64,000 bases of DNA from contig OY253684.1 of assembly GCA_958009085.1 (NCBI GenBank), forward strand, positions 186,001 through 250,000, written 5' to 3'. The stretch's first letter is position 1; the number at the start of each line of letters is the position of its first letter. A model generated the notes under the pieces. That model did no database searches. It saw only the letters and a list, made by a program, of their open reading frames with translations, and was not told where the DNA came from. This DNA comes from Protoeuglena noctilucae. Its lineage: Eukaryota. The position numbers and the translations under genes are program-made. Below, piece after piece: positions 30,772 through 49,000 of this stretch.

Positions 30772-32991
30772 ATGCAGCTCGTGTTTGCCGTCTTGGTCGC
30801 CATCTTGCATTTGCTTGGCACGAGCAGGGGTCAAGCGTCTGCAGAGTGGCCGGGGACGGCAGCATGCGAGCCAGGCGCGGGCCTGATGTGCAGCAGCACC
30901 GCACATATCTTCCAGGGCTGGCTGCAGCGCGATGGGCTGCTTTCAGAGGCCCTGGCCTCGTCCCGTACCACCGTCTTCGCTCCATCCGATCGTGCGATGC
31001 GCTTGCTTGCGGCCCTGATGAGCGAGAGGGACTTGCTGGTGAGCATGTGGGTCGGGTTGCTACCTCACGCATGCTGTGGCCTTTTCATGCCGCAGCGAGC
31101 CCCAATCACCGCAGGAGGACTCAGAGCTGCGTAAGCAAGTGCTGTTGGCTCACTTCGTGCCGGGCGCCCTGCCCGCCTCCTCCCTCCTCGACAATGTGCA
31201 GCTGGCCACCGCAGTGCGCGGTGTCAGCCTCTCAGTGACATCAGAGGCCACGGCCTCCAGCACCATCTTCAACGAAGGAGGCAGCGAGGTGAGGTGGAGA
31301 TCGAGCGCAGATGCTAGCTGCGTACGAGTACCCTCGCCCTTCATCCTCATCTCCTGGCGCTCGCAGACCTTGGGACCCCAGGTGGTGGCCACAGACGGCG
31401 TCCTCTACCTCATGGACGAGCCACTCGTGGAGATCCTCGAGCAAGTGGGAGCCCGCTCCCGTCCCCAGCCAGCGGCCGACATGCCCCGCCCCGACAAGAC
31501 GCAGTCGTGCCAGGGCTTCGCAGCGAGGGTCGCTGAGGCGTGCAAGGCAGACATGTGCGGCACGTGTCACGGCACCATGTGCGTGGCGAGCCAGCTGACC
31601 GCGTGCCACAACGTCCTGGTTTCGAGCGACGGCAGTGCGTCAAAGCCAATGGTCACCTTCTGGACTGCCACGTGGGGGACGTTCCCCGTGTGCCGCACCC
31701 CATGCCAGGACCTGGCCGAGGGCATCAAGTGAGGCTGCAGAGATGGGGACATAAGGTGGGGCAAGAAGCAGAGATGGATGTCAATCTGTGATACTCGGAG
31801 CTGTGACACCCGGACACCCGCAGAGAGCTGGTGGCGGGTGGCACCCTGACTCAGCAGGAAGGCGATGCTCTGCAAGCGCTGCAGGGCAAGGACTCGGGGA
31901 AGAGCGGGTCTGGGGCGGAGACCAGGTGTGGATGAAATGCGAGTGACGGCGCCCGTACATGTGACGACGGCCCACGGATGCCCTGAACGGTCGTGGTTAC
32001 GCTCGTCGAATTGCAGAGTGTTTGTGGATGTGAAGGATAAGGACTCCCTGTGCGATTACGACAAACCGTGCCCGGATACCCCCACGCCAGACGGCTTCAG
32101 CTGCAAGGTGAGCATGGCGCGTGTTGGTCTACGTAGCTACAGCTCAGCGTTGGCTGGCCCAGTCACTCACCCACAACTGTGACTGCAGGACCAACTCGAC
32201 TGGGGCAAGTGCGAGCTTCCCTGGATGCGAATGGGCGGCTTCTGCCGGCTCACGTGCGGCGACTGCTTCCGCGACTGCCTCAGCCTCAAGAAGGGCGCGC
32301 AGGTGCGGTGCGGTGTCCCAGCACGCTGGCTGGCCTGAGTCGAGGTTTCAAACTCGCACAGGGTGTGGCCCGCACCGCCACGGGCTGCCCCGCGGTCTCG
32401 ACCCCGCAGTGCTCCACCACCCCACTCAGGCGCCTGGTCCCACTGCCCTGTGGCCCGGGCCTGGAGTGCCGCGTCCTGGACCCCGGCAGTGCGCCGCACG
32501 ATGTCCCGGACTCTGGAGTCTGTGCCCCGCGTGGCTTCCTACCCCGCATCCCGCCCTGTGCCAGCTCCCCCTCCCCTTCCCCACCCCCATCTTTGCCGCC
32601 CTCAACCCCTGGCCCCTCCCTCCCGGTCCCCTCGGGCCTCAGTGGCCCGACTTCTTCAGGGAACTCCTCTGAGACCACGCCCCAGGTCAGTGCCACATAC
32701 CACGGTGGCCTCCGCCCTTGCATACTCGCTCAGCTTCTACCGCAACACGCACCAGCGGGTGTGCCCTATGCAATCCGTGCTTCTCCACTGCAGCCGAGCA
32801 ACGTCGCGCGCTCCATCTCCCTGGCTGTCTTCATCGCGGAAAACGTCGCTCCTAAAAGCGATGCCGGCGGCGCTGGAGGGCCAGCGAACCCCCCGCCGGC
32901 TCCGGCGCAGCAGCAGCAGTCGACGGCGGCACGGATCGCAGTCGCACTGGCCCAAGCAGAGGGCGGCTATGGGGGTCGTCGCCGGCGTTGA
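30772..32991 (+). CDS. Secreted fasciclin (FAS1)-domain protein with Cys-rich modules and Pro-rich tail
   Basis: Signal peptide MQLVFAVLVAILHLLG. FAS1 motifs TTVFAPSDRAM, VLLAHFVPG and DGVLYLMDEPL. Cys module CPDTPTPDGFSCK(D)QLDWGKCELPWMRMGGFCRLTCGDC. Ends GGRRRR*. Confidence 0.8.
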
Positions 32992-38743: not shown

Positions 38744-40600
38744 TCAACCGAGGCACCCACAAGCTTCCCACGAGCAGGCCTGTCCGCGCTCAGCCTGGAG
38801 GTGCTGGCTTGCGGCGGTGCCTCCACTTTCGACTCTTGGACCGAGCACAGCTGCGGTGGGGAGCATGGTGCAGGTGAGCTGAGTCAAGAGGATGCGTGGC
38901 GCGAGCGCGGCCGTGCGGCAGGCCACTCACGACTGCATGCACGGGGACGCTCCGGCTGAACTCGACGCTCCGCGACACCCTTGCGTCCTGCGAGGACAGG
39001 GTACCTGTGCCCTCGCGCCTGTCGTCGCTGGCTGCATCCGCCAGGTCCACGGGGACGTATCCGTGCTTGGCGAGCCAGGGGTGTTGCAGGAGCTCCTCCA
39101 TGCTTGGCCTCTCGTCATAGGTCCTGCGCGTGGCAGGGAGGGTGGCGGGAGTGCAGGGGTTCGCATGGAGAGCCACAGTGTAAACCATGAACCCCCTCTA
39201 CTGCATGGGCCGCTCACTTCTTGAGACACTGCAGGACGAAGTCCTCCAGCTCGGCGCTCATTTTCTTGGGAATGGCCGGGAGCTTGGTGAGGATGTTGGC
39301 CTTGATCAAATCCTTGGTGCGGTCGTAGAAGGGCGAGAGGCCTGCAGGACATCGCCACAGTTGCTGCACAGGTTCACTCATTGATTGCAACTACCGATGG
39401 CAGCACCCGCGCCAGGCAACAACACCGCGGGACCCACCTGTGACGATCTCCCACGCCAGCACGCCCACGCTCCACACGTCGCACCGGGAGTCGTACGTCG
39501 GTCGGCTTAGGTCCCGGTTGCACTCACAGGAGACCTTAGCTGGGCATTGGAGTACCTCGGGGGGCATATACTCCTGCACCCTCGACGGGGAGTGTGGATG
39601 ACAGTCGCAGCGGCTAGAAACGCAGCCGCCCACAACAGGGTAGGTGTGATCTCGCTGACAGCGCCCCTCCGCTCACCAGGGTGCCGAGGCGCGTGGTGGG
39701 TCGCTCCCGCCTGTGGTCGATGGCCAGGCCCAGGTCGCCGAGCAGGATGGTGGAGTCGGGGCGGACGAGGATGTTCTCGGGCTTGATGTCGCGGTGGAAG
39801 ATCCCGGTGCGGTGCAGCCGCGCCAGGGCGGTGCAGACGGGGCCGATGACGCGGCGGGCAGCAGTGCCCTCCGAAAGTCGCTCGCGGGTGTGCATGACGT
39901 GGAACAGGTCGCCCCCACCGACGAACTCCATGACGAGGTAAAAGAAGTCGGGGTCCTCCCAGGACGCATACAACGGCACCACGCCCGGCATGCACGCTGC
40001 AGGGGAAGCGTGGAAAGGGGTGCAGGTCACGACTCGGGAATGACAGCGCGGGTCACCGCCTGGTGAAAGCGAGTAGCTCAAGGCAGGGCATGGCGTGCAC
40101 ATGGCGCCCCTATGGCGCCACCGCGCCACACGCACCCGCTGCGTGGATGTCCATCTCCCGCTGGCATTGATGCGCGTGCACGGGATGCATGCCGGCCTTG
40201 GTGTAGGTCTTGAGAGCCACGACGTGCTGGGAGGCCCGGTGCATGGCCTTGTACACCGCGCTGGCCTTGCCCCCGCCGATGGGCTTCACGACCACGAACG
40301 CCTCGACGCCGAACGGCCCCTGTCGCATGTCATCCGGGGCGAGCTTGGTGATGGTCAGGTCGGTCACGGGTCGCCAGGACGGGGGGTGGGCGAGGGCTTG
40401 GGGAGGAACGTGCTCCGGTGGAGCTGATGGAGGGGCCCACTGCGGCAAGCAAGGTAAGGAACGTTACGCACTCAGGGCTACAGAGAAGTGTGCACGCCCC
40501 CTGGATTTGCTCGCATCGAGCTCTTACTGTAGCGGTGGAGTCGGATATTTCCGAACCATGGCGCGTGGTGCAGGGCGTGTTGTCATCTGCAGACCATTGA
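38744..40600 (-). CDS. Ser/Thr protein kinase, Aurora-like; multi-exon, ends approximate
   Basis: IGGGKASAVYKA, VALK, HRDIKPENIL, DLG (in place of DFG), GTL..YMPPE, DVWSVGV and RPSMEELLQHPWL. Confidence 0.88.
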
Positions 40601-41503: not shown

Positions 41504-43287
41504 ATGGCCGGGATGTACGCGCTAGGCGCGGGGGCGGCTGGGGCTTTGCGCGTCTCACCATGTGTCATGTCGTATGCACGAGCCATGAATTTTGTGTGCA
41601 CGGTGAGACGCACGCCGGCGGCGACGGCCAGAGCTGGCAGGGAAAGGGAAAGGGCGCGTTCATGGGACGGCCACGTCCTGTTCTCGGCGCTTGCAGGCCC
41701 GCGCTCAGCTGTCATCTTCAGGGTGCCGTTCTGGGCGAACGGGCGTGGCATGTCGCGCGGGCGGTGACCAGCGTGAGGGTGGCCAGCCGCCACGCGACGA
41801 TGAGTTTGACCGCGAGTCCATGCGGTCGTTGGACGACGCCCAGCGCATCCTGGAGGACATGCTACAGGAGATATGCAACACGCTCTTCGTCTCCGAGGCC
41901 GCCGCATTTGTGACTGGCGACGCGGCCGACACGACACAGGTGTGCGGGCGGGACGCCGCCCGTGCGTCTCTCCCCTAAACTGCCTTGGGGCGATATCATC
42001 CGCGTCCCCGGCCGCAGGCGGAGGTCGTGCGCGAGGCTGTCGCCAAGCGCATCGAGGTCTTGGACCAGGGGTTCCTCACCGCCTGCAGCGCCTATGCGTC
42101 TGTGCTGGCGGCCTCCCCGGGCAACGCCGACCTCCTGGGCCTCATACAGGACATCCAGCAGGAAGTGCTGCGAGCCGTGACGACCAGGATGCCGGCGCCG
42201 ATGCGGGTGCGGGCGAGGGACGGCTGGGTGCTGCGAGGGCGGTGTGACGTTGTTGCCTCAGCGTGCGTCCATGCCACCCGCTGCAGGTGTTGGACCGCGT
42301 GCTGGGAATGGCAGACGCGGCGAGCAGGAGGGCGTTCCTGGAGCAATGCGCCCTCGCCGACGTCGAAGCCGCAGAGGCGGCCGGGGAGGAGCGCCCAGAC
42401 CCGCCCTCTTCCTCCAAGGGCCCTGACTCTGACTCGCCTGTCCTGCCATGCGCCACCGCGTCGATCGTGGCCATCGCCAACCAATTCATCGCGGACATGG
42501 AGGAGCGAGAGACGGGTGAGGGTTGGCTTTTGGAAGAGCGCCAGCCATGGGGCTGCGGTGCAGGTGCAACAAAGGGCCGTGGCCCATTCGCGCCCTCGCA
42601 GTCCCTGACCGGCAGCTCCTGGCGCGCCTGTGCTTGGCTCGGGAAGACGCGTGGGAGGTGGACCGGACCCTCTTTGAGCGTGGCGCGTATGAGGGGCGGC
42701 TGATGCCCGCTGGCGGGGGGGACACGGGGATGCCGGAGCGTGCTCCCAGCCTCGTCTTCCCCACGGAGCTCCCGCGCGTGCAGCTGGGGTTCCTGGCAAC
42801 GGTGAGGAGCTCGGCAGCCGCGTGCATGGCGAGTGTGTTGATCTGCTCGTGGCGACTCCTCAAGACTTAACACGATGCGCTCCCCATGCAGCTCCTGCGC
42901 TCCCCCGACCAAGAGATCCCCGGGCGCGTCGAGTCGGCGTTTGTCGCGGACCAGCCCGACGCGGTGTCGCCGGGGGTGATGGAGGAGATGCCGCAGCGGG
43001 ACGCGGAGATGGCGGAGATGGGGCGGCGGCTGGCGGCCGGGCAGCGGGGGCGCGGGCAGGGCGCTGCGGTGGCGCCGCCCGAGGTGGTGCGGCCCGGGGC
43101 GTTCCTTCTGACGCTGGCGGCGCTCGAGTGCGAGGTGGTCGGGTCGCTGCCGGGGGCTGAGGTGGAGCAAGTGGAGCGCATGCGGGTGATTCGCAAGCAG
43201 GCCATGGAGGTCCTCGAGCGCATGGCGGCGGGGGAGCTCCGGGAAGCGGAGAACGGAGACATGGAAAGGGACGCGTTCCCGATCTAA
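41504..43287 (+). CDS. PRDA1: PRDA1-like (PEP-related development arrested 1) plastid protein
   Basis: Transit-like N-terminus. IVAIANQFIADMEERETVPDRQLLARLCLAREDA, TELPRVQLGFLA, VRPGAFLLTL and KQAMEVLERMA parallel plant PRDA1 motifs as I recall them. Confidence 0.72.
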
Positions 43288-43572
43288 GGGGCACAGCAGG
43301 GCGGCGACCGGGCACGGCAGCAAGTGTTACGCTGTGCGCGGGGTGTGGGCTCTGCGCCTGTGATTGTCCACTGTTTTCAATGTCTCTGGTTTGTTCAGCC
43401 GGTGACTGCAGCTGCCACTGCCTCGTTTACTTGGCCCCCTCGCCTGCCAACTGTGCTGTGTTTCTACGCAAAGGCCCCTTCCCAAACATTCTTTGCCGCC
43501 TGAACGACCGAGCCCAGCATGCGCGTGATGTGGCCCACGAGTCCCTGCGCCCATGGGCAAAGCAGGTCGCAG

Positions 43573-45976
43573 TTATGACCAAAGCGTACCAGGAACATGG
43601 CACAGGGCCAGACCCTGTGCCACACCCACCTGTCCCTCCCCGTCCTGCTCAATGGAGCTTGCCTGCTGGCTGACACGCCTTTTCCCAGACTGCGAGCCAG
43701 AGGATGGGGTGACGACAAACGGACGCACGCATCGCACCAGCAACGCACTCACACGGCAAGCGGTCACCTTCTGCGCTGGCGTGTCGGACCGGGCCGCCTT
43801 GGCGTTCCTCGACCTCTTGGCCACCCCACGCGACGTCCGCGCCCCTCGCTTCCTTCCCCGCCCTCCCCCGCCCTTCTTCGCGGTTCGCGCCTCCCTTGCG
43901 CCCCCGCCCCGCCCCTGCGTGCCCTGCACACCGCTCGTCCCGGCTTCCGCATTCGCCCCATCTCTCCTCCCCGACCTTGTCTGCCGGCTTCGCCCCTCGT
44001 CACCTCCCCTCCCAGCCGTCCCCTCTGCTGGGTCCTCCTCCGGATCAGATAACACGACCACCACCTCGCCCCCCACTGCGTGCACGTCAGAGGCGTCGTG
44101 CATGCCTGCAACCAGGTCGCAGCTCCAAACCGCATCCCTGGGCACGCCATTCATCGCAGCACCCACTTGCGGATTCTGGGAGGAGCAGGACCTCCTCAGG
44201 TGGCCTGTGGTGGGGAGACATGGCCAGCGAGGGGAAGTGACACCCGGCCGTGCGCGGGGAGTTGAAGATCTCCGTCAGCGGCGCTTTCTGTGGGCCAACG
44301 GGGGTCGGGCGTCAGGCCGAGCACGCCCGGGCATTCACGGGCAAGGCGTGGTTGGGTCCGCGTCCCTGTGCACAGCATCACGCACAAGGTGACGCACAAC
44401 ATCCGCATCGCTTCGCTGCCCACCTTGGGCTTGTGTTGGTGGCAGTAGAAGTGCCTCTCGTCTAGGTCCTCGATGCCGGAGGTGCCCCGGAGGGCCCAGA
44501 GCGCGCGGTTGCGGCAGGCGTGGCATGGAATGACGGGGAGCTTGTTCTGGATCACCACGAGGATCTGAAGCGGCGATGCCGCGATGTCGTCATACACCCG
44601 CGCCGACACGCGCATGGGGCCCTCCACGAGGACCAGGCAGTCCATGGGAGACGCCCTGCAGTCACCCAATCGGAGGCGCGGCAGTCCAGCCGCACGCTGA
44701 CACAGGCATACAGGCGCAGCTGTGCAGCCGGACGCACGCTCGTATTGTCCTCACGTGTCATACTGAAAGCCCACGACCTCGTTGGAATGGACGAGCCGGT
44801 CCATCAGGCGTGTGTCGTAGGGCAGACGGTGGCAGTCCCGCAAAGAGTCTCCGTCCCGAGAGCACTGTGGGCGGGAAGCACGCGGCAGATTCCCAAGCTG
44901 TTCGTTGAGGGCAGTGGGAAAGACTTCAAGGCCCAGAAGATACCATCCTTGCGACTGCGCACCTGAACGGGGCGTGCCGTGGAGCTCTGGGGCGAGACGA
45001 AGGGGGTAGGCGGGCCCAGCGCCACGTCATGCAGCAGGAGCTGGCTCGCTGCAGATGAAGAGGAGGAATGGCTGGGGACAGAAGTCACGTGACAGCCAGG
45101 GATGCCCACATCATGCCGCTTCAGATTCTCACCGTGTCCACGGCAGCACGGCTCGCACCACGTCTTGCGCAGCACCTCGTCCAGACCTGCCATGGTCGCA
45201 GACGGGGTCGCCAGGAGCGTGAGCCGAAACACGCCCTGGAAAGCCTGCACCCTCGAGAAAAGCTGTGAAAGAGTTCCTTTCCAAGTCAACACCCAGACAG
45301 CAGTACGTCGACACAGGGAGGTTTGGAGGAAACTGGTCGGCACCCACCTGAGCCTGCAGCTTGAGGACGACCCGCTGGTCGGATGGGACGTCATCCGAGG
45401 GCCCGATACACCGTGCCAGATGCGCATCGTGCTCTTTGCGAGGTAGCTCGCTCTGGCATCGCTGCGTGCGGGAAATCCGGCGCTGTTGAGCGCGGCGCGT
45501 GCACAGCTGGTTGTCCCGTCCGATCGCGGGCCCCAGCTCACTCACGTAGCACAGATATGGAGGCATCGGAAACCATTCCTTGTCCTCCGCGGGTCCCTCG
45601 TCCCCCGCCCCCGCCATCGCGCGAGAAATTTCCCCCCGCCCGTAGGGTCCTCAAGGTACTGGGGTTCGACGATGCTTCGGCCGACCCCCGATGACAGCTC
45701 CTCTTTTTTTTGATTGAGAGCTGATTGGCATCCGAGCATGGCTATCCTGTCCGACCGGCAGTCCAGTCTGACAGGGCGCTTGTTACCGGCGACATACTGG
45801 GAATTCAAAATCTCGCCTTGCCAGCAGCTCCGGAGCCAGCGCGCGCACTCCACAAGCGCATCCCGATCGAGCTCCGAACCCCGTGACGTGGCCATGGACG
45901 CCAGCGGCGTCCTCGCCCGCCTTGTGGGTGCAGGCGACGCCCTCGATGGTTCGGGGGAAGGGGCCGCGGCGGTCAT
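43573..45976 (-). CDS. Multi-exon Cys/His-rich protein resembling the prokaryotic pRiA4b-ORF3-related Zn-binding family, with a basic C-terminal tail
   Basis: Manual splicing gives CYRC..HLARC, LDEVLRKTWCEPCCRGH, GFQYDTAS, QNKLPVIPCHAC..CHQH and IFNSPRTAGC. Confidence 0.6.
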
Positions 45977-46060
45977 CACGGTGGGTCGACTGCGATGCTC
46001 GAATGGCGTTATTCGAAACGCCTGCTCTGGGAGCTGAAAGCGCGCCCAGGGAAACGAGCT

Positions 46061-49000
46061 ATGCAACGCCAACGTGTTTTTCGGATGCAGGCTGCCGCGC
46101 TGACGGAGGAGGATCTCTCCAAGCTTCGCGCTGCAGAGGCAAAAGACTGGCATGCAGCTGCGTCGTCAGCTGAGGCGCTGGGCCGACTGCGGTCGTGCCT
46201 GGTGGCCCACATCTTCCACGGGGCACCTCAACTGCGCGCGCTCGGGGCTTGCGCGTACCTGGCAGCTCTCGGCAATAGCGCAGCTCCGACTGCCGCTCTT
46301 CTGGACGATGTTGCCCTCCACGGCGTCCTGAGGGTCTGCCGCGAGGCCGCGCGCGCCCTGGACCGTGCCTCGGGCCCAGAGGTGGGGGCGGCCACGCGCT
46401 GAGGCCTTGGCCGGATGCACTTGAGCAAAGCCTGCAGGCGGTATGTCAATCCATGGCCTGCGTCTGGCTAGGACTAGGGGTGGGCGGGCAGGGCGCAGCA
46501 TGCCTGGCATGCCTCGGCCACTGCAGGCTGCTCGCCTGCAGTGCAACGCTTGTCATGTCCTGTTCCGCGCACGCAGGACCCCGGGCTGGCGCACGAGAAG
46601 GACGAGTCCGTCGACGCAGACATGGAGGCAGGCCCGGTCGTGGAGGCAAACTGGCCTGCCATCCTGGCAGCAGTGGTGCAGGGCATGGCCCCAGCCCTGG
46701 CGCGCGTGTCACTCAAGGGGAGCGAGGACCTGGTGCGGGCGACCTCGGAGACGCTGCTGGCGTCGGCCGCAGCGTCGGCGGACGTGGCTGCGGCGGCGTT
46801 CGCGGCGCTGCGGGAGGTGGCCGACGCGCGCCACGGGGACCTGCGGGACACGCTGCGTGTGGTGTTCCACCAGCTGTCGGGGGCCGTGCTGGCCTTCGCC
46901 TCGCGCGGCGGAAAGGGCGCCGCCGCGTCGGTCCTGCGCGCCGCGGCCGTGGACTTCGCCTGCGCCGTGGTGGAGGAGGAGCCCCGGGCGGGGCCAGCGG
47001 CGGCGGCGCTCGTGCGGCACGTCTGCCTCAAGTGCCCCGACCGCGCCGACGTGCGCCAGAGCACCGTCGGCGCCGTCTGCCGCCTCACGCGGACGCTGCC
47101 GTGGAGCGAGGCGAGTGGCCGGCTTGCCAGCATGCCCGCATTTCAGCACGTCGTGACGTGCATGCCTGCTTGCCTCTTCTCCCTGCTATCCACGACCTGT
47201 CCTCCACGCCTTCCCTGTGCAGCAACAGCGCGTGGTGCTCTTCCTGGCCAAGATGTCCCGCACCAAGTCCGCGGCCCACCGCGTCATGGCCGTGGACCTC
47301 GCCCAAGAATTCCTGGTCGACTTCGAGGGCGTCTTCGCCGTCCCCGAGGAGAGGCCCAGCGAGGAACCCGCCGAGGCGCCACGGACGCCCGCGCCTGGCC
47401 CCACGCCGGGGCCCGCCTCGGCGCCGCGCGCGTCCCTCACCCCGGGCGCGTCGGCCAAGTCCCCCGCCTCGTCTTTGCGGCTGGCCCTGGCCACGCCCTG
47501 CTCCGTGGGCACGGACGGGCTCCTCCGCACGCCCTGCGCCGCGCCCCTCCCTCACAGCGTGCCCCTCGGGGTCCTGTGCCTGGCCGTCCTCCTGCAGCGG
47601 TGCTCAGACCGCCAGGCGTCGGTGCGTGCGCGCGCCCTGTCGCAGCTGGCCGGGGTGCTCGAGGGCCTGCGGGAGGGCGGGGAGCGCGACCTGGCCGCGG
47701 AGGCGCTCTGGAGGCTCGGGTCGCTGCAGGCGGGGGGCGGGGCCCCGCTGCCGTCTGCCGTCCGCACGCGCGACAGCTTCATGACGGATCTGCCGACGCA
47801 CCTCACGGCGGCGACGGCGCAGACGGGCGGGGCGACCGGCGGGGCCCCGGGCGCGTCGGGCACCGCGGCGCCGCTGCACACCATCGCGCGGCTCAAGCGG
47901 TTGGCGCAGCGCCGCGGCGGCGACGACCGCGGCGCCGTGCGCAAGGCGAGCGTGGCCCTGATGCGGTCGCTGCTGCTGCTGGCGCGCTTCGTGGCCGAGG
48001 CCGGCGACCCCGAGGACGCGAGCCCCACCGCCGAGGACCTGGCCCTGCTGACGCGGGGCGCGGCCGACGTGCTGCTCACCGTGAGGCGGGCGGCGCTGGC
48101 CGCGCTCGTGGACCTCGCCGCGGCCTTCCCGGGCACGGCGCTGGCCACCGAGGCGGCCGTCGCGGCGGCGTGCCGCCTGGTGCACGACCCGGAGTCGGCC
48201 GTGCAGGGGGCGGCCCTGGACGCCATGGATGCGCTGGTGCTGGCGGGGCGGGGCGCGACCGCGGGGCTGCGGGCGCTCGCGCGGCTCGGGGCGCGGGGCA
48301 CGGCCGCCGCGGCGCGTGGNNNNNNNNNNNNNNNNNNNNNNNNNNNNNNNNNNNNNNNNNNNNNNNNNNNNNNNNNNNNNNNNNNNNNNNNNNNNNNNNN
48401 NNNNNNNNNNNNNNNNNNNNNNNNNNNNNNNNNNNNNNNNNNNNNNNNNNNNNNNNNNNNNNNNNNNNNNNNNNNNNNNNNNNNNNNNNNNNNNNNNNNN
48501 NNNNNNNNNNNNNNNNNNNATGGCAGCCGTGGCGCCCCGCTTCCCAGGCACGGAGGCGGCCGATGTGGCGGCGACGCTGCTGGAGGACCTCCTGTCCCTG
48601 CAACTGCCGTGCAGCCTGGCCACGGCGCACGTGCTGGCACTGGAGCGCTTCTGCTGCAGGTGAGGGGTCTGGCGTGCATCTTGTGGACGACGGTGCTCGC
48701 GCGGCTGCAGTCTGCCAATGCGCACCTTCCGCTCTGCACCCAGCGCTGCCGGTGACCTGGACACGCGGGCGGGGAAGGAGGCGCATGCTGCTGCCATGCG
48801 TGCCTGGGTCGAGCAGGTGTACGCCGCGGCGGAAGGCGAGGTGCGCACCTTCGTGGACGTGCTGCAGGCGGGTGCCGAGGTCGCGGAGGGCGACGCGCAG
48901 GCGACTGCGGCCATCTACGCCGTGGGGGAGGTCGCGCTGCTGGGCGCGGCGCCCGTGCCCGGGCAGCTGTCAGGCGAGGACTGCTACGCTTTTATTTTGA

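What the first reader, a model, noticed from the sequence alone, without database searches (positions are those of the whole stretch)
43573..45976. Intron-containing gene matching a prokaryotic pRiA4b-ORF3-related Zn-binding family: candidate domesticated HGT
No single ORF shows it. Joining GT-AG exons gives, in order, CYRC-x9-HLARC, LDEVLRKTWCEPCCRGH, GFQYDTASPMDC, IQNKLPVIPCHAC..FYCHQH and LTEIFNSPRTAGC. This mirrors the motif order I recall for an uncharacterised bacterial/archaeal family (CxxC..HLxxC; LDxFLRxIWLECCGH; YDFG; RNxxPxxxCxxC; NSPRxGxC) related to the pRiA4b ORF-3 (MM3350-like) fold. A Lys/Arg-rich NLS-like tail has been added. Inference: a prokaryote-derived metal-binding protein repurposed for the nucleus.
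Basis: partly seen in the sequence, partly recalled or inferred. Interest (0 to 1): 0.72.

Follow-up and report, generated by a model that had tools for sequence, protein, structure and literature searches.

The report
Algal gene from bacterial zinc-protein family
A spliced, expressed gene of a GC-rich marine eukaryote encodes a zinc-binding protein whose only clear relatives, apart from one other eukaryote, are bacterial, archaeal and viral proteins of unknown function, so it is a likely but unproven case of gene transfer into a eukaryote.

Summary
A minus-strand gene (CDS 45617..43464) is split by 9 GT-AG introns. Metatranscriptome contigs show 8 of them spliced. The stretch 45618-45976 is not coding for this gene.

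Only one other eukaryote-type homologue was found, and it shares intron 1. Transfer from prokaryotes is the most likely origin, but trees do not resolve a donor and eukaryotes were poorly sampled. Nuclear location and DNA binding are inferences. The result is a new eukaryotic member of a known, uncharacterised family, of moderate interest.

The parts
45546..45617 (-). Exon 1. ATG at 45617. Encodes aa 1-24 and ends with ..LCY, which carries the first Cys of the N-terminal CxxC.
   Evidence: Joint 45546|45461 in RNA contig X9 record 11, 24 nt on the shorter side. An in-frame TGA lies upstream of the ATG. The L085 homologue has an intron at the same place.
45348..45461 (-). Exon 2. Encodes RC..H..C, the rest of the C-x2-C-x11-H-x3-C finger, and the first beta strand (VVLKLQAQ).
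   Evidence: Fully covered by X9 record 11, with joints on both sides. Weak Pfam hits to UBZ_FAAP20 (E 0.063) and DNA_ligase_ZBD (E 0.11), both below cut-off.
45133..45244 (-). Exon 3. Encodes AFQGVFRL..LDEVLRKTWCEPCCRGH, the most conserved block.
   Evidence: Acceptor 45244 comes from an RNA joint with 23 nt on the shorter side. hhalign of this exon alone against 80 bacterial proteins gives probability 90.4%, E 1.4e-6. The donor at 45133 is not covered by RNA.
44963..45048 (-). Exon 4. Encodes ASQLLLHD.. and a poorly conserved linker.
   Evidence: Joint 44963|44864 in X9 and X11. The link to exon 3 is inferred from GT..AG ends and from alignment to the homologues.
44755..44864 (-). Exon 5. 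Encodes ..VVGFQYDT, the counterpart of the bacterial YDFG strand.
   Evidence: Joints on both sides in X9 and X11. HMM alignment.
44424..44655 (-). Exon 6. Encodes ASPMDC.., IQNKLPVIPCHAC and FYCHQH (the C-terminal zinc module).
   Evidence: Joints in X9, X11 and X12. phmmer of this exon found the homologue P0004 (E 7e-5).
44167..44287 (-). Exon 7. Encodes the NSPRTAGC strand, the end of the conserved domain (about aa 268), and the start of the tail.
   Evidence: Joints in X9, X11 and X12. HMM alignment reaches aa 266.
43768..44075 (-). Exon 8. Encodes the Gly/Arg/Ala-rich disordered tail with basic clusters RKRGAR (aa 357) and KRSR (aa 369).
   Evidence: Joints 44167|44075 (X9, X11, X12) and 43768|43689 (X11, X12). 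Composition.
43630..43689 (-). Exon 9. Tail, with basic cluster KRR (aa 388).
   Evidence: Joints on both sides in RNA contigs.
43464..43544 (-). Exon 10. Encodes the last 26 aa (GLVGHITRMLGSVVQAAKNVWEGAFA) and the TAG stop at 43464-43466. The 3' UTR continues below 43464.
   Evidence: Joint 43630|43544 in X9, X11 and X12. Contigs continue to at least 43300. The C-terminal end resembles that of the L085 homologue by eye.
45618..45976 (.). It is not coding for this gene. It is probably a short 5' UTR plus a shared promoter region with the divergent plus-strand gene.
   Evidence: No RNA contig above about 45650, which is weak evidence. A stop codon lies in frame upstream of the ATG and no AG acceptor lies between them.

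Best explanation
This is a real, transcribed and spliced 10-exon nuclear gene of a GC-rich marine eukaryote. It encodes a 431-aa protein made of two parts.

(1) A domain of about 265 aa that is a full-length homologue of a widespread prokaryotic zinc-binding family. That family is itself a divergent branch of the pRiA4b ORF-3 / MM3350 (PF07929) superfamily. The domain consists of:
- an N-terminal C-x2-C-x11-H-x3-C finger;
- a beta-grasp-containing barrel carrying the ..W.E.CC.GH motif;
- a C-terminal CxxC...CxxH module;
- a closing NSPRxGxC strand.

(2) A disordered tail of about 165 aa that is net basic.

Shown: gene structure, expression, homology and fold class.

Inferred (about 0.6): the gene entered an ancestor of at least two eukaryotic lineages from a prokaryote or a virus. 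It then took on host base composition and acquired introns.

Inferred (about 0.3-0.35): the Cys/His residues hold two or three structural zinc ions that stabilise the barrel, as the two zinc fingers do in SNAP50. On this reading the protein acts in the nucleus as a nucleic-acid-binding or scaffold protein, and the basic tail supplies nuclear import and non-specific DNA/RNA affinity.
For: Gene model: 8 of 9 introns are spliced in contigs of 3 metatranscriptome runs. CDS GC is 0.668 and GC3 0.799, against window GC 0.673. DNA runs labelled with an organism name hold all sampled words of the stretch.

Homology:
- An HMM of 83 prokaryotic sequences gives the spliced protein 46.5 bits, E 3.3e-13. 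It is one domain covering HMM positions 11-225 of 227. The second eukaryotic protein scores 42.3 bits, and the best of 2000 shuffles scores 4.0.
- hhalign of P0004 against 80 bacterial proteins gives probability 96.3%, E 1.7e-9, over 192 columns.
- tblastn of P0004 against 72,556 plasmids gave only 2 hits, both annotated 'plasmid pRiA4b ORF-3 family protein'.
- The ligand positions C23, C26, H38, C42, C95, C96, H99, C209, C212 and C258 align with invariant bacterial Cys/His.

Superfamily and fold:
- 60 of 80 bacterial members hit PF07929 at E<=0.01. The Deinococcus proteins score 23.0 and 26.4 bits against a cut-off of 26.6.
- The ESM Atlas neighbours are all bacterial or archaeal PF07929-type clusters.

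Origin:
- The family has at least 561 confirmed loci in prokaryote genomes of many phyla and is present in 17 of 121 Deinococcota genomes.
- It also occurs on an archaeal plasmid and on 3 viral contigs, one labelled a giant-virus MAG.
- In eukaryote-type DNA only the window gene and P0004/L085 were found.
- L085 has an intron at exactly the same codon boundary (CY|xC) as window intron 1. This argues for a common eukaryotic ancestor of the two genes.

Mechanism: in SNAP50 the two zinc fingers are structural, and the barrel and wedge domains contact DNA (passages of PMC9652321). The tail has 29 K+R against 19 D+E, with clusters RKRGAR, KRSR and KRR. The homologue's tail has 57 K+R against 28 D+E.
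Against: - The eukaryotic proteins give no Pfam or NCBIfam hit at E<=10. Word-indexed searches of 5.8 billion proteins found no prokaryotic relative directly.
- Foldseek against the PDB gave nothing at E<=0.001. 2I1S scored only E 0.08, though with probability 0.90.
- The P0004 model is of middling quality (pLDDT 66).
- In two quick ML trees the eukaryotic pair sits on a stem of 2.3-2.8 changes per site. It falls outside all prokaryotic rows in one tree and in an unresolved polytomy in the other. It is therefore not nested in any donor clade, and it does not group with the giant-virus row.
- Eukaryotes were sampled only through one 77-aa exon and through P0004. The protein collections are largely prokaryote-style ORF calls, which miss split genes.
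- SNAP50 shows that the fold is ancient in eukaryotes.
- There is no conserved gene neighbourhood in bacteria to suggest a function (119 flanking ORFs of 62 loci). No paper on the family's function was found.
- Zinc binding, nuclear location and DNA binding are all untested.
- Intron 3 lacks RNA support, and run X10 shows only unspliced pieces.
Confidence: 0.6

Rival explanations
1. The gene is an ancient, vertically inherited eukaryotic gene. It would be a sister or paralogue of the SNAP50/SNAPC3 lineage that survives in only a few protist lineages after many losses. The resemblance to the prokaryotic family would reflect common ancestry before eukaryotes arose, not later transfer.
For: - The eukaryotic pair is not nested within sampled prokaryotes and sits on a very long stem.
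- SNAP50 is the second-best structural match and aligns over more residues than MM3350: 172 and 178 residues, spanning the finger, the barrel and the C-terminal zinc module.
- The two eukaryotic proteins are only about 43% identical over 206 columns and share an intron position, so the gene is old within eukaryotes.
- No synteny was found between the two loci.
Against: - No PF12251 (SNAPC3) hit for either eukaryotic protein at E<=10. Only 1 of 80 bacterial relatives touches PF12251, against 60 of 80 for PF07929.
- The protein matches the prokaryotic HMM end to end and keeps the prokaryotic motif set and finger spacing.
- It has no counterpart of SNAP50's N-terminal lasso domain. Only 22 residues precede the finger.
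- No further eukaryotic homologue turned up among 1.84 billion representative proteins searched with exon 6.
Confidence: 0.2
2. The protein is a protein-binding adaptor rather than a nucleic-acid binder. On this reading the N-terminal C2HC finger works like a UBZ4 ubiquitin-binding finger (RAD18, FAAP20). The beta-grasp core and B-box-like module mediate protein-protein contacts, for example in DNA-damage or ubiquitin signalling.
For: - The finger spacing C-x2-C-x11-H-x3-C, and weak hits of exons 1-2 to UBZ_FAAP20 (E 0.063).
- The bacterial profile weakly hits the RAD18 UBZ (E 0.065) and Sgf11.
- The family is frequent in Deinococcota: 17 of 121 genomes.
Against: - The best sequence hit of the finger is a nairovirus Gn zinc finger (E 5e-4), not a ubiquitin binder.
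- Bacteria, where the family is commonest, lack ubiquitin.
- The eukaryotic proteins lack the inner CxxC (bacterial C175/C178) needed for a two-zinc B-box-like cross-brace.
Confidence: 0.12
3. The gene reached the eukaryote through a giant virus (NCLDV) rather than directly from a bacterium.
For: A contig labelled as a giant-virus MAG (L101, GC 0.198) encodes a 285-aa member with all motif blocks, at 87 bits to the bacterial HMM. Like the algal proteins it has an added low-complexity tail, though an acidic one. Its neighbours carry DUF4116 and a 2OG-Fe(II)/Pox_C4_C10-like domain.
Against: - The eukaryotic pair does not group with L101 in the tree, and L101 is not among the 8 best BLAST hits of either eukaryotic protein.
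- Scans of viral contigs with P0004 found no relative, and a scan with exon 6 gave one weak match that I could not confirm.
- L101's branch is extremely long (4.36) and its composition deviates from the alignment.
Confidence: 0.07
4. The signal is an artefact: bacterial contamination of the assembly, a pseudogene, or a chance run of Cys/His motifs.
For: Single ORF pieces score only 15.1 and 11.7 bits against the bacterial HMM. Exon 6 alone gives hhalign probability 10%.
Against: - Spliceosomal introns are removed in RNA.
- Base composition equals the surroundings.
- The open frame runs through 10 exons.
- The spliced product scores 46.5 bits against 4.0 for the best of 2000 shuffles.
- A second eukaryotic homologue shares an intron position.
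Confidence: 0.01

Closest known systems
Unnamed prokaryotic zinc-binding branch of the pRiA4b ORF-3 superfamily. It comprises stand-alone proteins of about 228 aa such as Herpetosiphon aurantiacus Haur_5105 (ABX07733.1), and the N-terminal domain of about 730-aa Deinococcus proteins WP_225523291.1 and WP_162485629.1. PGAP annotates these as 'hypothetical protein' or 'plasmid pRiA4b ORF-3 family protein'.
   Same: - Full-length collinear match (HMM positions 11-225 of 227).
- Identical finger spacing C-x2-C-x11-H-x3-C.
- The blocks LD..LR..W.E.CC.GH, Y-D strand, N..P...CxxC, C..H and NSPRxGxC occur in the same order.
- The algal proteins lack the inner CxxC (C175/C178), as the Deinococcus long forms do.
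   Different: - Only 24-26% identity.
- One- to two-residue insertions inside the ECCGH motif (CEPCCRGH).
- YDFG has become YDTA.
- A longer linker of 30-60 residues follows the CCGH motif.
- A basic disordered tail of 165-270 aa is added.
- The gene is interrupted by spliceosomal introns.
- The eukaryotic proteins have no DUF6930/DUF7309 domains.
PF07929 PRiA4_ORF3 / MM3350 of Methanosarcina mazei (PDB 2I1S)
   Different: - The eukaryotic proteins do not hit PF07929 at all, and the bacterial relatives mostly score near or below the gathering cut-off.
- The match to 2I1S covers only 116-123 residues, the barrel. The N-terminal finger and the C-terminal zinc module lie outside or at the edge of it.
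- The function of MM3350 is unknown.
SNAP50 / SNAPC3 (PF12251), the scaffold and DNA-contacting subunit of the snRNA-activating complex (PDB 7XUR chain B). The chain is assigned to SNAP50 from its residue numbers, which is an inference.
   Same: - Second-best structural match, aligned over 172-178 residues including the zinc-bearing parts.
- SNAP50 likewise has a beta-barrel with two structural zinc fingers (PMC9652321, passages).
- Some archaeal and bacterial clusters carry both PF07929 and PF12251 hits.
   Different: - No sequence-level match.
- No lasso domain.
- No evidence for SNAP190 or SNAP43 partners.
IS1096 TnpR and pRiA4_Orf3-like passenger proteins of Mutator-like bacterial transposons
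   Same: The same superfamily by the automatic cluster names in the ESM Atlas. A figure legend in PMC3942029 states that ISAzba1-group transposons encode a pRiA4_Orf3-like protein.
   Different: Most of the bacterial loci examined here are not next to transposases. The window gene is not in a recognisable mobile element. The role of these passenger proteins is itself unknown.

Membership tests
Prokaryotic zinc-binding pRiA4b-ORF3-like family (defined here by alignment A3 and the HMM) | Significant match to the family profile over its whole length | tested here: met
   46.5 bits, E 3.3e-13, HMM positions 11-225 of 227. The best of 2000 shuffles scores 4.0 bits. P0004 against A3 by hhalign: probability 96.3%, E 1.7e-9.
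Prokaryotic zinc-binding pRiA4b-ORF3-like family | N-terminal C-x2-C-x11-H-x3-C finger (bacterial C11, C14, H26, C30, invariant in 80 of 80) | tested here: met
   C23, C26, H38 and C42 have the same spacing. The finger is split by intron 1, whose removal RNA confirms.
Prokaryotic zinc-binding pRiA4b-ORF3-like family | LD.(Y/F)LR.IWLECCGH block (bacterial C89, C90, H92 invariant) | tested here: met
   LDEVLRKTWCEPCCRGH aligns with C95, C96 and H99, with two single-residue insertions. Exon 3 alone against A3: probability 90.4%.
Prokaryotic zinc-binding pRiA4b-ORF3-like family | YDFG strand (Y125, D126, G128 invariant; H123 invariant in the 228-aa group) | tested here: inconclusive
   The window has FQYDTAS. 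Y and D are kept, F and G are not, and H123 is F161. H123 is also Y in the Deinococcus and archaeal members.
Prokaryotic zinc-binding pRiA4b-ORF3-like family | C-terminal zinc module: RN..P...CxxC (C164, C167), inner CxxC (C175, C178), C..H (C189, H192) | tested here: inconclusive
   C209 and C212 align. The inner CxxC is absent, as it is in the Deinococcus long forms. hmmalign did not place YCHQH (aa 235-239) under LCDxH; the correspondence is by eye.
Prokaryotic zinc-binding pRiA4b-ORF3-like family | Closing NSPRxGxCGY strand (N211, S212, P213, R214, G216, C218 invariant) | tested here: met
   NSPRTAGC, with C258 aligned to C218. GY is replaced by HF.
Prokaryotic zinc-binding pRiA4b-ORF3-like family | Actual binding of zinc | not testable with these tools
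Pfam PF07929 PRiA4_ORF3 | Score at or above the Pfam gathering cut-off (26.6 bits) | tested here: not met
   No hit at E<=10 for the window exon pieces or for P0004. The spliced protein itself could not be submitted to the Pfam tool. Bacterial relatives: 60 of 80 at E<=0.01; Deinococcus 23.0 and 26.4 bits.
Pfam PF07929 PRiA4_ORF3 | MM3350-type fold (PDB 2I1S) | tested here: met
SNAPC3 / SNAP50 (PF12251) | Match to PF12251 | tested here: not met
   No hit at E<=10. 1 of 80 bacterial relatives at E<=0.01.
SNAPC3 / SNAP50 (PF12251) | Beta-barrel plus wedge with two structural zinc fingers | tested here: inconclusive
SNAPC3 / SNAP50 (PF12251) | N-terminal lasso domain that grips SNAP43; partners SNAP190 and SNAP43 | not tested
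   Only 22 residues precede the finger, so a lasso domain is unlikely. The genome is not held, so partners and a canonical SNAPC3 could not be sought.
Horizontally acquired gene (prokaryote or virus to eukaryote) | Nested within a donor clade in a supported phylogeny | tested here: inconclusive
   The algal clade has SH-aLRT 100 on a stem of 2.3-2.8. It falls outside all prokaryote rows in one tree and in a polytomy in the other. These were quick searches with the LG+G4 model. The careful run was killed.
Horizontally acquired gene (prokaryote or virus to eukaryote) | Wide in donors, patchy in eukaryotes | tested here: inconclusive
   At least 561 prokaryotic loci, against 2 eukaryote-type genes found. 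The eukaryotic side was probed only with a 77-aa exon and with P0004.
Horizontally acquired gene (prokaryote or virus to eukaryote) | Truly part of the eukaryotic genome | tested here: met
   Nine introns, eight confirmed in RNA. Host-like GC and GC3. Flanked by split eukaryote-type genes, for example a protein-kinase fragment at 39614-40285.

The most novel reading that the evidence does not exclude
The zinc-bearing pRiA4b-ORF3-like family may be the prokaryotic stock from which SNAP50, the DNA-contacting scaffold of the snRNA-activating complex, arose. The authors of the SNAPc structure described SNAP50 as having no known homologous structure. On this reading the algal gene is either a second, independent recruitment of that fold to the eukaryotic nucleus or a surviving early offshoot. 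Either way it would be a DNA-binding factor of a kind not yet described in eukaryotes outside SNAPc.
Probability: 0.15. Interest if true: 0.65.

Novelty: new member of a known kind. Interest (0 to 1): 0.42.

Why it matters
The result confirms that a motif pattern visible only after splicing can reveal a real eukaryotic member of a large, uncharacterised prokaryotic protein family that no curated model recognises in these proteins. If the transfer is confirmed, it adds a dated example of a foreign gene that became fully integrated: it shares one intron with a distant relative and has eight further introns in one lineage. It also gives a eukaryotic handle on the function of the MM3350/pRiA4b ORF-3 fold, whose only characterised relative is SNAP50. 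On its own, a transfer of a gene of unknown function into a protist is not rare, so the practical weight is moderate.

Tried and rejected
- Pfam and NCBIfam on exon pieces and on P0004 gave nothing useful.
- Word-indexed protein searches failed. Exon 6 with 'longer' lengths found only the window's own ORF call, P0001. P0004 1-290 'near' found only itself among 3229 candidates. P0004 'shorter' found none of 416 candidates at E<=10.
- The exhaustive phmmer with exon 6 gave 5 hits at E<=0.001. One was P0001 itself. P0003 and P0005 are unrelated repeat proteins that match short stretches. P0002 (2070 aa, 4 short stretches) was not examined. Only P0004 is a true relative.
- The fragment alignment A1 of single exons was badly aligned and was not used.
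- Foldseek against the PDB found nothing at E<=0.001.
- No genome is held for the window. A canonical SNAPC3, paralogues elsewhere and the organism's identity could therefore not be checked.
- The introns are not copies of a repeated element within the window, so I drop the idea that they are introner-type elements. Only the 64 kb were searched.
- No synteny was found between the L085/L086 flanks and the window. The tblastx was dominated by GC-rich noise.
- A third weak HMM hit, at 31244-31639(-), has no motifs and is chance.
- The bacterial gene neighbourhood shows no conserved partner among 119 flanking ORFs of 62 of the 80 loci. The 18 loci left out had short flanks or were near-duplicates.
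- The scan of viral contigs with A4 failed because confirmation used the divergent P0004. It was repeated with A3.
- Scans of viral contigs with P0004 and with exon 6 gave no relative and one weak match. For that match (L102) my frame extraction gave no open frame, so it was not followed further.
- Earlier findings of this scan: nothing on record by place, sequence or words.
- No RNA contig covers 45086-45179 or anything above about 45650. This says nothing about absence.
- Literature searches for PRiA4_ORF3, PF07929, pRiA4b, MM3350 and IS1096 listed no paper on the family's function (listings and abstracts only, plus one passage of PMC3942029).
Full report
**1. What is in the sequence**

The window is GC-rich (0.62-0.73 in 2-kb bins). 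Its open frames are broken up in the manner of a eukaryotic genome with short introns.

I then looked for RNA. The stretch is held completely by DNA runs of marine metagenomes and of a named (coded) organism. Four marine metatranscriptome runs hold it in part. I laid the four RNA runs on 43300-46100. Contigs of X9, X11 and X12 skip eight stretches, each with CT..AC ends on the plus strand, which is GT..AG on the minus strand. The evidence changed the model in three places:
- The acceptor of intron 2 is at 45244, 18 nt downstream of my first choice. The change is in frame.
- Exon 8 ends at 43768.
- There is one more intron (43629-45545 is not meant here; it is 43629-43545).

The final model has ten exons: 45617-45546, 45461-45348, 45244-45133, 45048-44963, 44864-44755, 44655-44424, 44287-44167, 44075-43768, 43689-43630 and 43544-43464. 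That is 1296 nt encoding 431 aa.

Caveats:
- The two 5' joints rest on one 162-nt contig with 23-24 nt on the shorter side.
- Intron 3 (45132-45049; 84 nt, in frame, no stop) is not covered by RNA. It is accepted because both the bacterial profile and the second eukaryotic protein align straight across 'GH|ASQ'.
- The four contigs of X10 are collinear with the genome and enter introns 6-9, so they are unspliced RNA or DNA.
- All RNA runs belong to one study.
A TGA lies in frame just above the ATG with no AG between them.

**2. Is it related to the prokaryotic family?**

Direct searches nearly failed. Exon pieces gave no Pfam or NCBIfam family. The only hits were sub-threshold ones of exons 1-2 to small zinc fingers, such as UBZ_FAAP20 at E 0.063. 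An exhaustive phmmer of the 77-aa exon 6 against 1.84 billion representative proteins gave the window's own prokaryote-style ORF call and one true relative, P0004 (545 aa, E 7e-5, one stretch over 70 residues). P0004 has no Pfam hit and no relatives in the word-indexed collection at near or shorter lengths.

The first lead to prokaryotes came from the ESM Atlas. The nearest clusters by features (0.93, 0.91) and by structure (TM 0.54) were bacterial. They carried PF07929 in 28-67% of members or were named IS1096 TnpR family.

A tblastn of P0004 1-283 against 72,556 plasmids returned just two records. Both were Deinococcus genes annotated 'plasmid pRiA4b ORF-3 family protein' (E 0.06 and 0.1).
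- a CxxC..H..C start;
- LDRFLRDIWLECCGHLSSF;
- YTYDFG;
- ARNLPPxxxCxxC;
- YCGxHG;
- VVNSPRMGVCGY.

Further members turned up on a Herpetosiphon plasmid (a 228-aa stand-alone protein) and on a haloarchaeal plasmid (211 aa, lacking the C-terminal module). Of these, 561 were confirmed. The best 80 come from Chloroflexota, Cyanobacteriota, Pseudomonadota, Bacteroidota, Myxococcota, Planctomycetota and other phyla.

The statistical test was as follows. I built an HMM from those 80 proteins plus the two Deinococcus N-domains and the archaeal protein.
- The spliced window protein scores 46.5 bits (E 3.3e-13 for 2002 targets), as a single domain covering HMM positions 11-225 of 227 and residues 23-266.
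- P0004 scores 42.3 bits.
- The best of 2000 composition-preserving shuffles scores 4.0 bits.
- hhalign of P0004 against the 80-sequence alignment gives probability 96.3%, E 1.7e-9, over 192 columns.
- Exon 3 alone gives probability 90.4%. Exon 6 alone gives only 10%.
- Scanning all 1114 six-frame pieces of the window, the two best are pieces of this gene at 15.1 and 11.7 bits.

Of the Cys/His columns that are invariant in the 80 bacterial proteins, the window protein keeps C23, C26, H38 and C42 with identical spacing. It also keeps C95, C96, H99, C209, C212 and C258, and, by eye, the C..H of YCHQH. It lacks the inner CxxC (bacterial C175/C178), as the Deinococcus long forms also do.

**3. Relation to pRiA4b ORF-3 / MM3350**

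60 of the 80 bacterial members hit PF07929 at E<=0.01 (best 6e-7). One hits PF12251 SNAPC3. 20 hit a nairovirus Gn model through the N-terminal finger. The Deinococcus proteins score 23.0 and 26.4 bits against a cut-off of 26.6, and they carry DUF6930 and DUF7309 downstream. NCBIfam has no model for the family.

The AlphaFold2 model of P0004 1-283, built with the bacterial alignment, has pLDDT 66 and pTM 0.64. The model of the Herpetosiphon protein has pLDDT 84 and pTM 0.81.

The architecture is therefore: a C2HC finger, then an MM3350-type barrel, then a zinc module, then a closing Cys-bearing strand. The eukaryotic proteins are members of the prokaryotic zinc family. They belong to the PF07929 superfamily only by transitive and structural evidence, since they fail the Pfam model itself.

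**4. The second eukaryotic gene**

P0004 lies on metagenome contigs of 45-54 kb with GC 0.69. It is one uninterrupted 1635-nt frame, but it lacks the first Cys of the finger. About 220 nt upstream there is an exon ending ..WFPMPKYICY|GTAAGT, and the P0004 frame resumes after ..CAG with GC... This gene therefore has an intron at exactly the position of window intron 1 (CY|xC). That splice is inferred, not seen in RNA.

The other eight window introns have no counterpart. Introns 2-6 fall inside continuously aligned sequence. The two proteins are 43% identical over 206 columns. Both have long basic low-complexity tails, and their C-terminal ends are similar. No synteny was detectable in the flanks.

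The shared intron and the divergence together say that the gene was present in a common eukaryotic ancestor of two clearly different organisms.

**5. Origin**

For transfer from prokaryotes:
- The family is abundant and phylogenetically scrambled among bacteria.
- It is present in 17 of 121 sampled Deinococcota genomes.
- It occurs on plasmids, in two phage-like contigs, and in one contig labelled a giant-virus MAG. That contig's neighbours carry DUF4116 and Pox_C4_C10-like domains.
- I could find only two eukaryotic genes.
- All nearest Atlas clusters are bacterial or archaeal.

Against a firm conclusion:
- In quick ML trees the eukaryotic pair (SH-aLRT 100) hangs on a stem of 2.3-2.8 changes per site. 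In one tree it is outside all prokaryotic rows. In the other it is in an unresolved polytomy with them, and it never groups with the giant-virus row. The careful run was killed.
- My eukaryotic sampling was thin.
- SNAP50 shows that the fold is old in eukaryotes.

I put transfer, direct or through a virus, at about 0.65 in all, and ancient vertical descent with loss at about 0.2. The gene is fully assimilated: GC 0.668 and GC3 0.80 against 0.673 for the window.

**6. How it probably works**

Nothing is known experimentally about MM3350 or the bacterial family. Literature searches listed no functional study. One legend notes pRiA4_Orf3-like passenger genes in Mutator-like transposons (PMC3942029). 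The bacterial genes have no conserved neighbour.

The only characterised relative is SNAP50. There the two zinc fingers are structural, and the barrel and wedge contact both DNA grooves within a multi-subunit complex (PMC9652321, passages).

By analogy, my favoured mechanism (about 0.3-0.35) has three parts:
- Zinc ions clamp the finger, the CCGH/NSPR..C pair and the CxxC..CxxH module onto the barrel.
- The domain binds nucleic acid or serves as a scaffold.
- The basic tail (clusters RKRGAR, KRSR, KRR at aa 357-390; 29 K+R against 19 D+E) gives nuclear import and non-specific affinity.

The acidic N-terminus argues against an organelle transit peptide (inference). A ubiquitin- or protein-binding role, through the UBZ4-like finger and beta-grasp core, is the main functional rival.

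**7. Verdict**

The homology claim is right. The PF07929 link is right at superfamily level. Transfer and nuclear function remain plausible inferences. This is a new eukaryotic member of a known but uncharacterised family, of moderate interest. The interest would rise if the SNAP50 connection proves to be evolutionary rather than merely structural.

Noticed in passing
window 43464-45617 compared with L085 7751-9638: The window gene has nine introns of 78-136 nt. Its homologue on the metagenome contig appears to have only the first one, at the identical codon boundary. Eight introns were therefore gained in one lineage or lost in the other. The introns are not repeated elsewhere in the window.
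   Followed up: partly
L101 2842-3696 (viral contig labelled as a giant-virus MAG, GC 0.198): A 285-aa member of the zinc family (87 bits to the bacterial HMM) with a long acidic Asp/Glu/Asn/Thr repeat tail. Its neighbours carry DUF4116 and a 2OG-Fe(II)/Pox_C4_C10-like domain. Giant viruses therefore also carry this family.
   Followed up: partly
L001 2809-5010, L002 2827-5031 and loci L091-L098 (Deinococcota): Long forms of about 730-840 aa fuse the zinc domain to DUF6930 and DUF7309. Like the algal proteins, they lack the inner CxxC. In L001 a WYL-domain gene lies next door. Short and long forms coexist in the phylum, and 17 of 121 genomes have a match.
   Followed up: partly
L004 2492-3127 (Natrialbaceae plasmid): The archaeal member keeps the finger, the CCGH block and YDFG but lacks the whole C-terminal zinc module and the NSPR strand. 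It sits near a SWIM zinc-finger gene, a KTSC gene and a transposase.
   Followed up: no
window 43300-43700: An 1847-nt RNA contig of run X9 runs from exon 9 through the 3' UTR and about 1540 nt further, beyond 43300, where a convergent plus-strand frame ends at 43287. The two genes' 3' ends may overlap, or the assembler may have merged two transcripts.
   Followed up: no
window 43361-44580, run X10: All four contigs of this RNA run are collinear with the genome and enter introns 6-9. The other three runs of the same study show the spliced form. The cause may be intron retention, pre-mRNA or DNA carry-over.
   Followed up: no
window about 48700-48900: A run of 200 N (an assembly gap) lies inside a long GC-rich open frame on the plus strand.
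   Followed up: no
window 39614-40285 (-): An ORF piece with a protein-kinase domain (PF00069, E 8e-22). The other long flanking frames tested gave no Pfam family.
   Followed up: no
alignment A3 (80 bacterial proteins), N-terminal 40 residues: The bacterial C2HC finger hits the Crimean-Congo-type nairovirus Gn zinc-finger model in 20 of 80 members (best E 1e-5) and PDB 2L7X at E 5e-4. This is an unexpected sequence resemblance between a bacterial finger and a viral glycoprotein tail finger.
   Followed up: no
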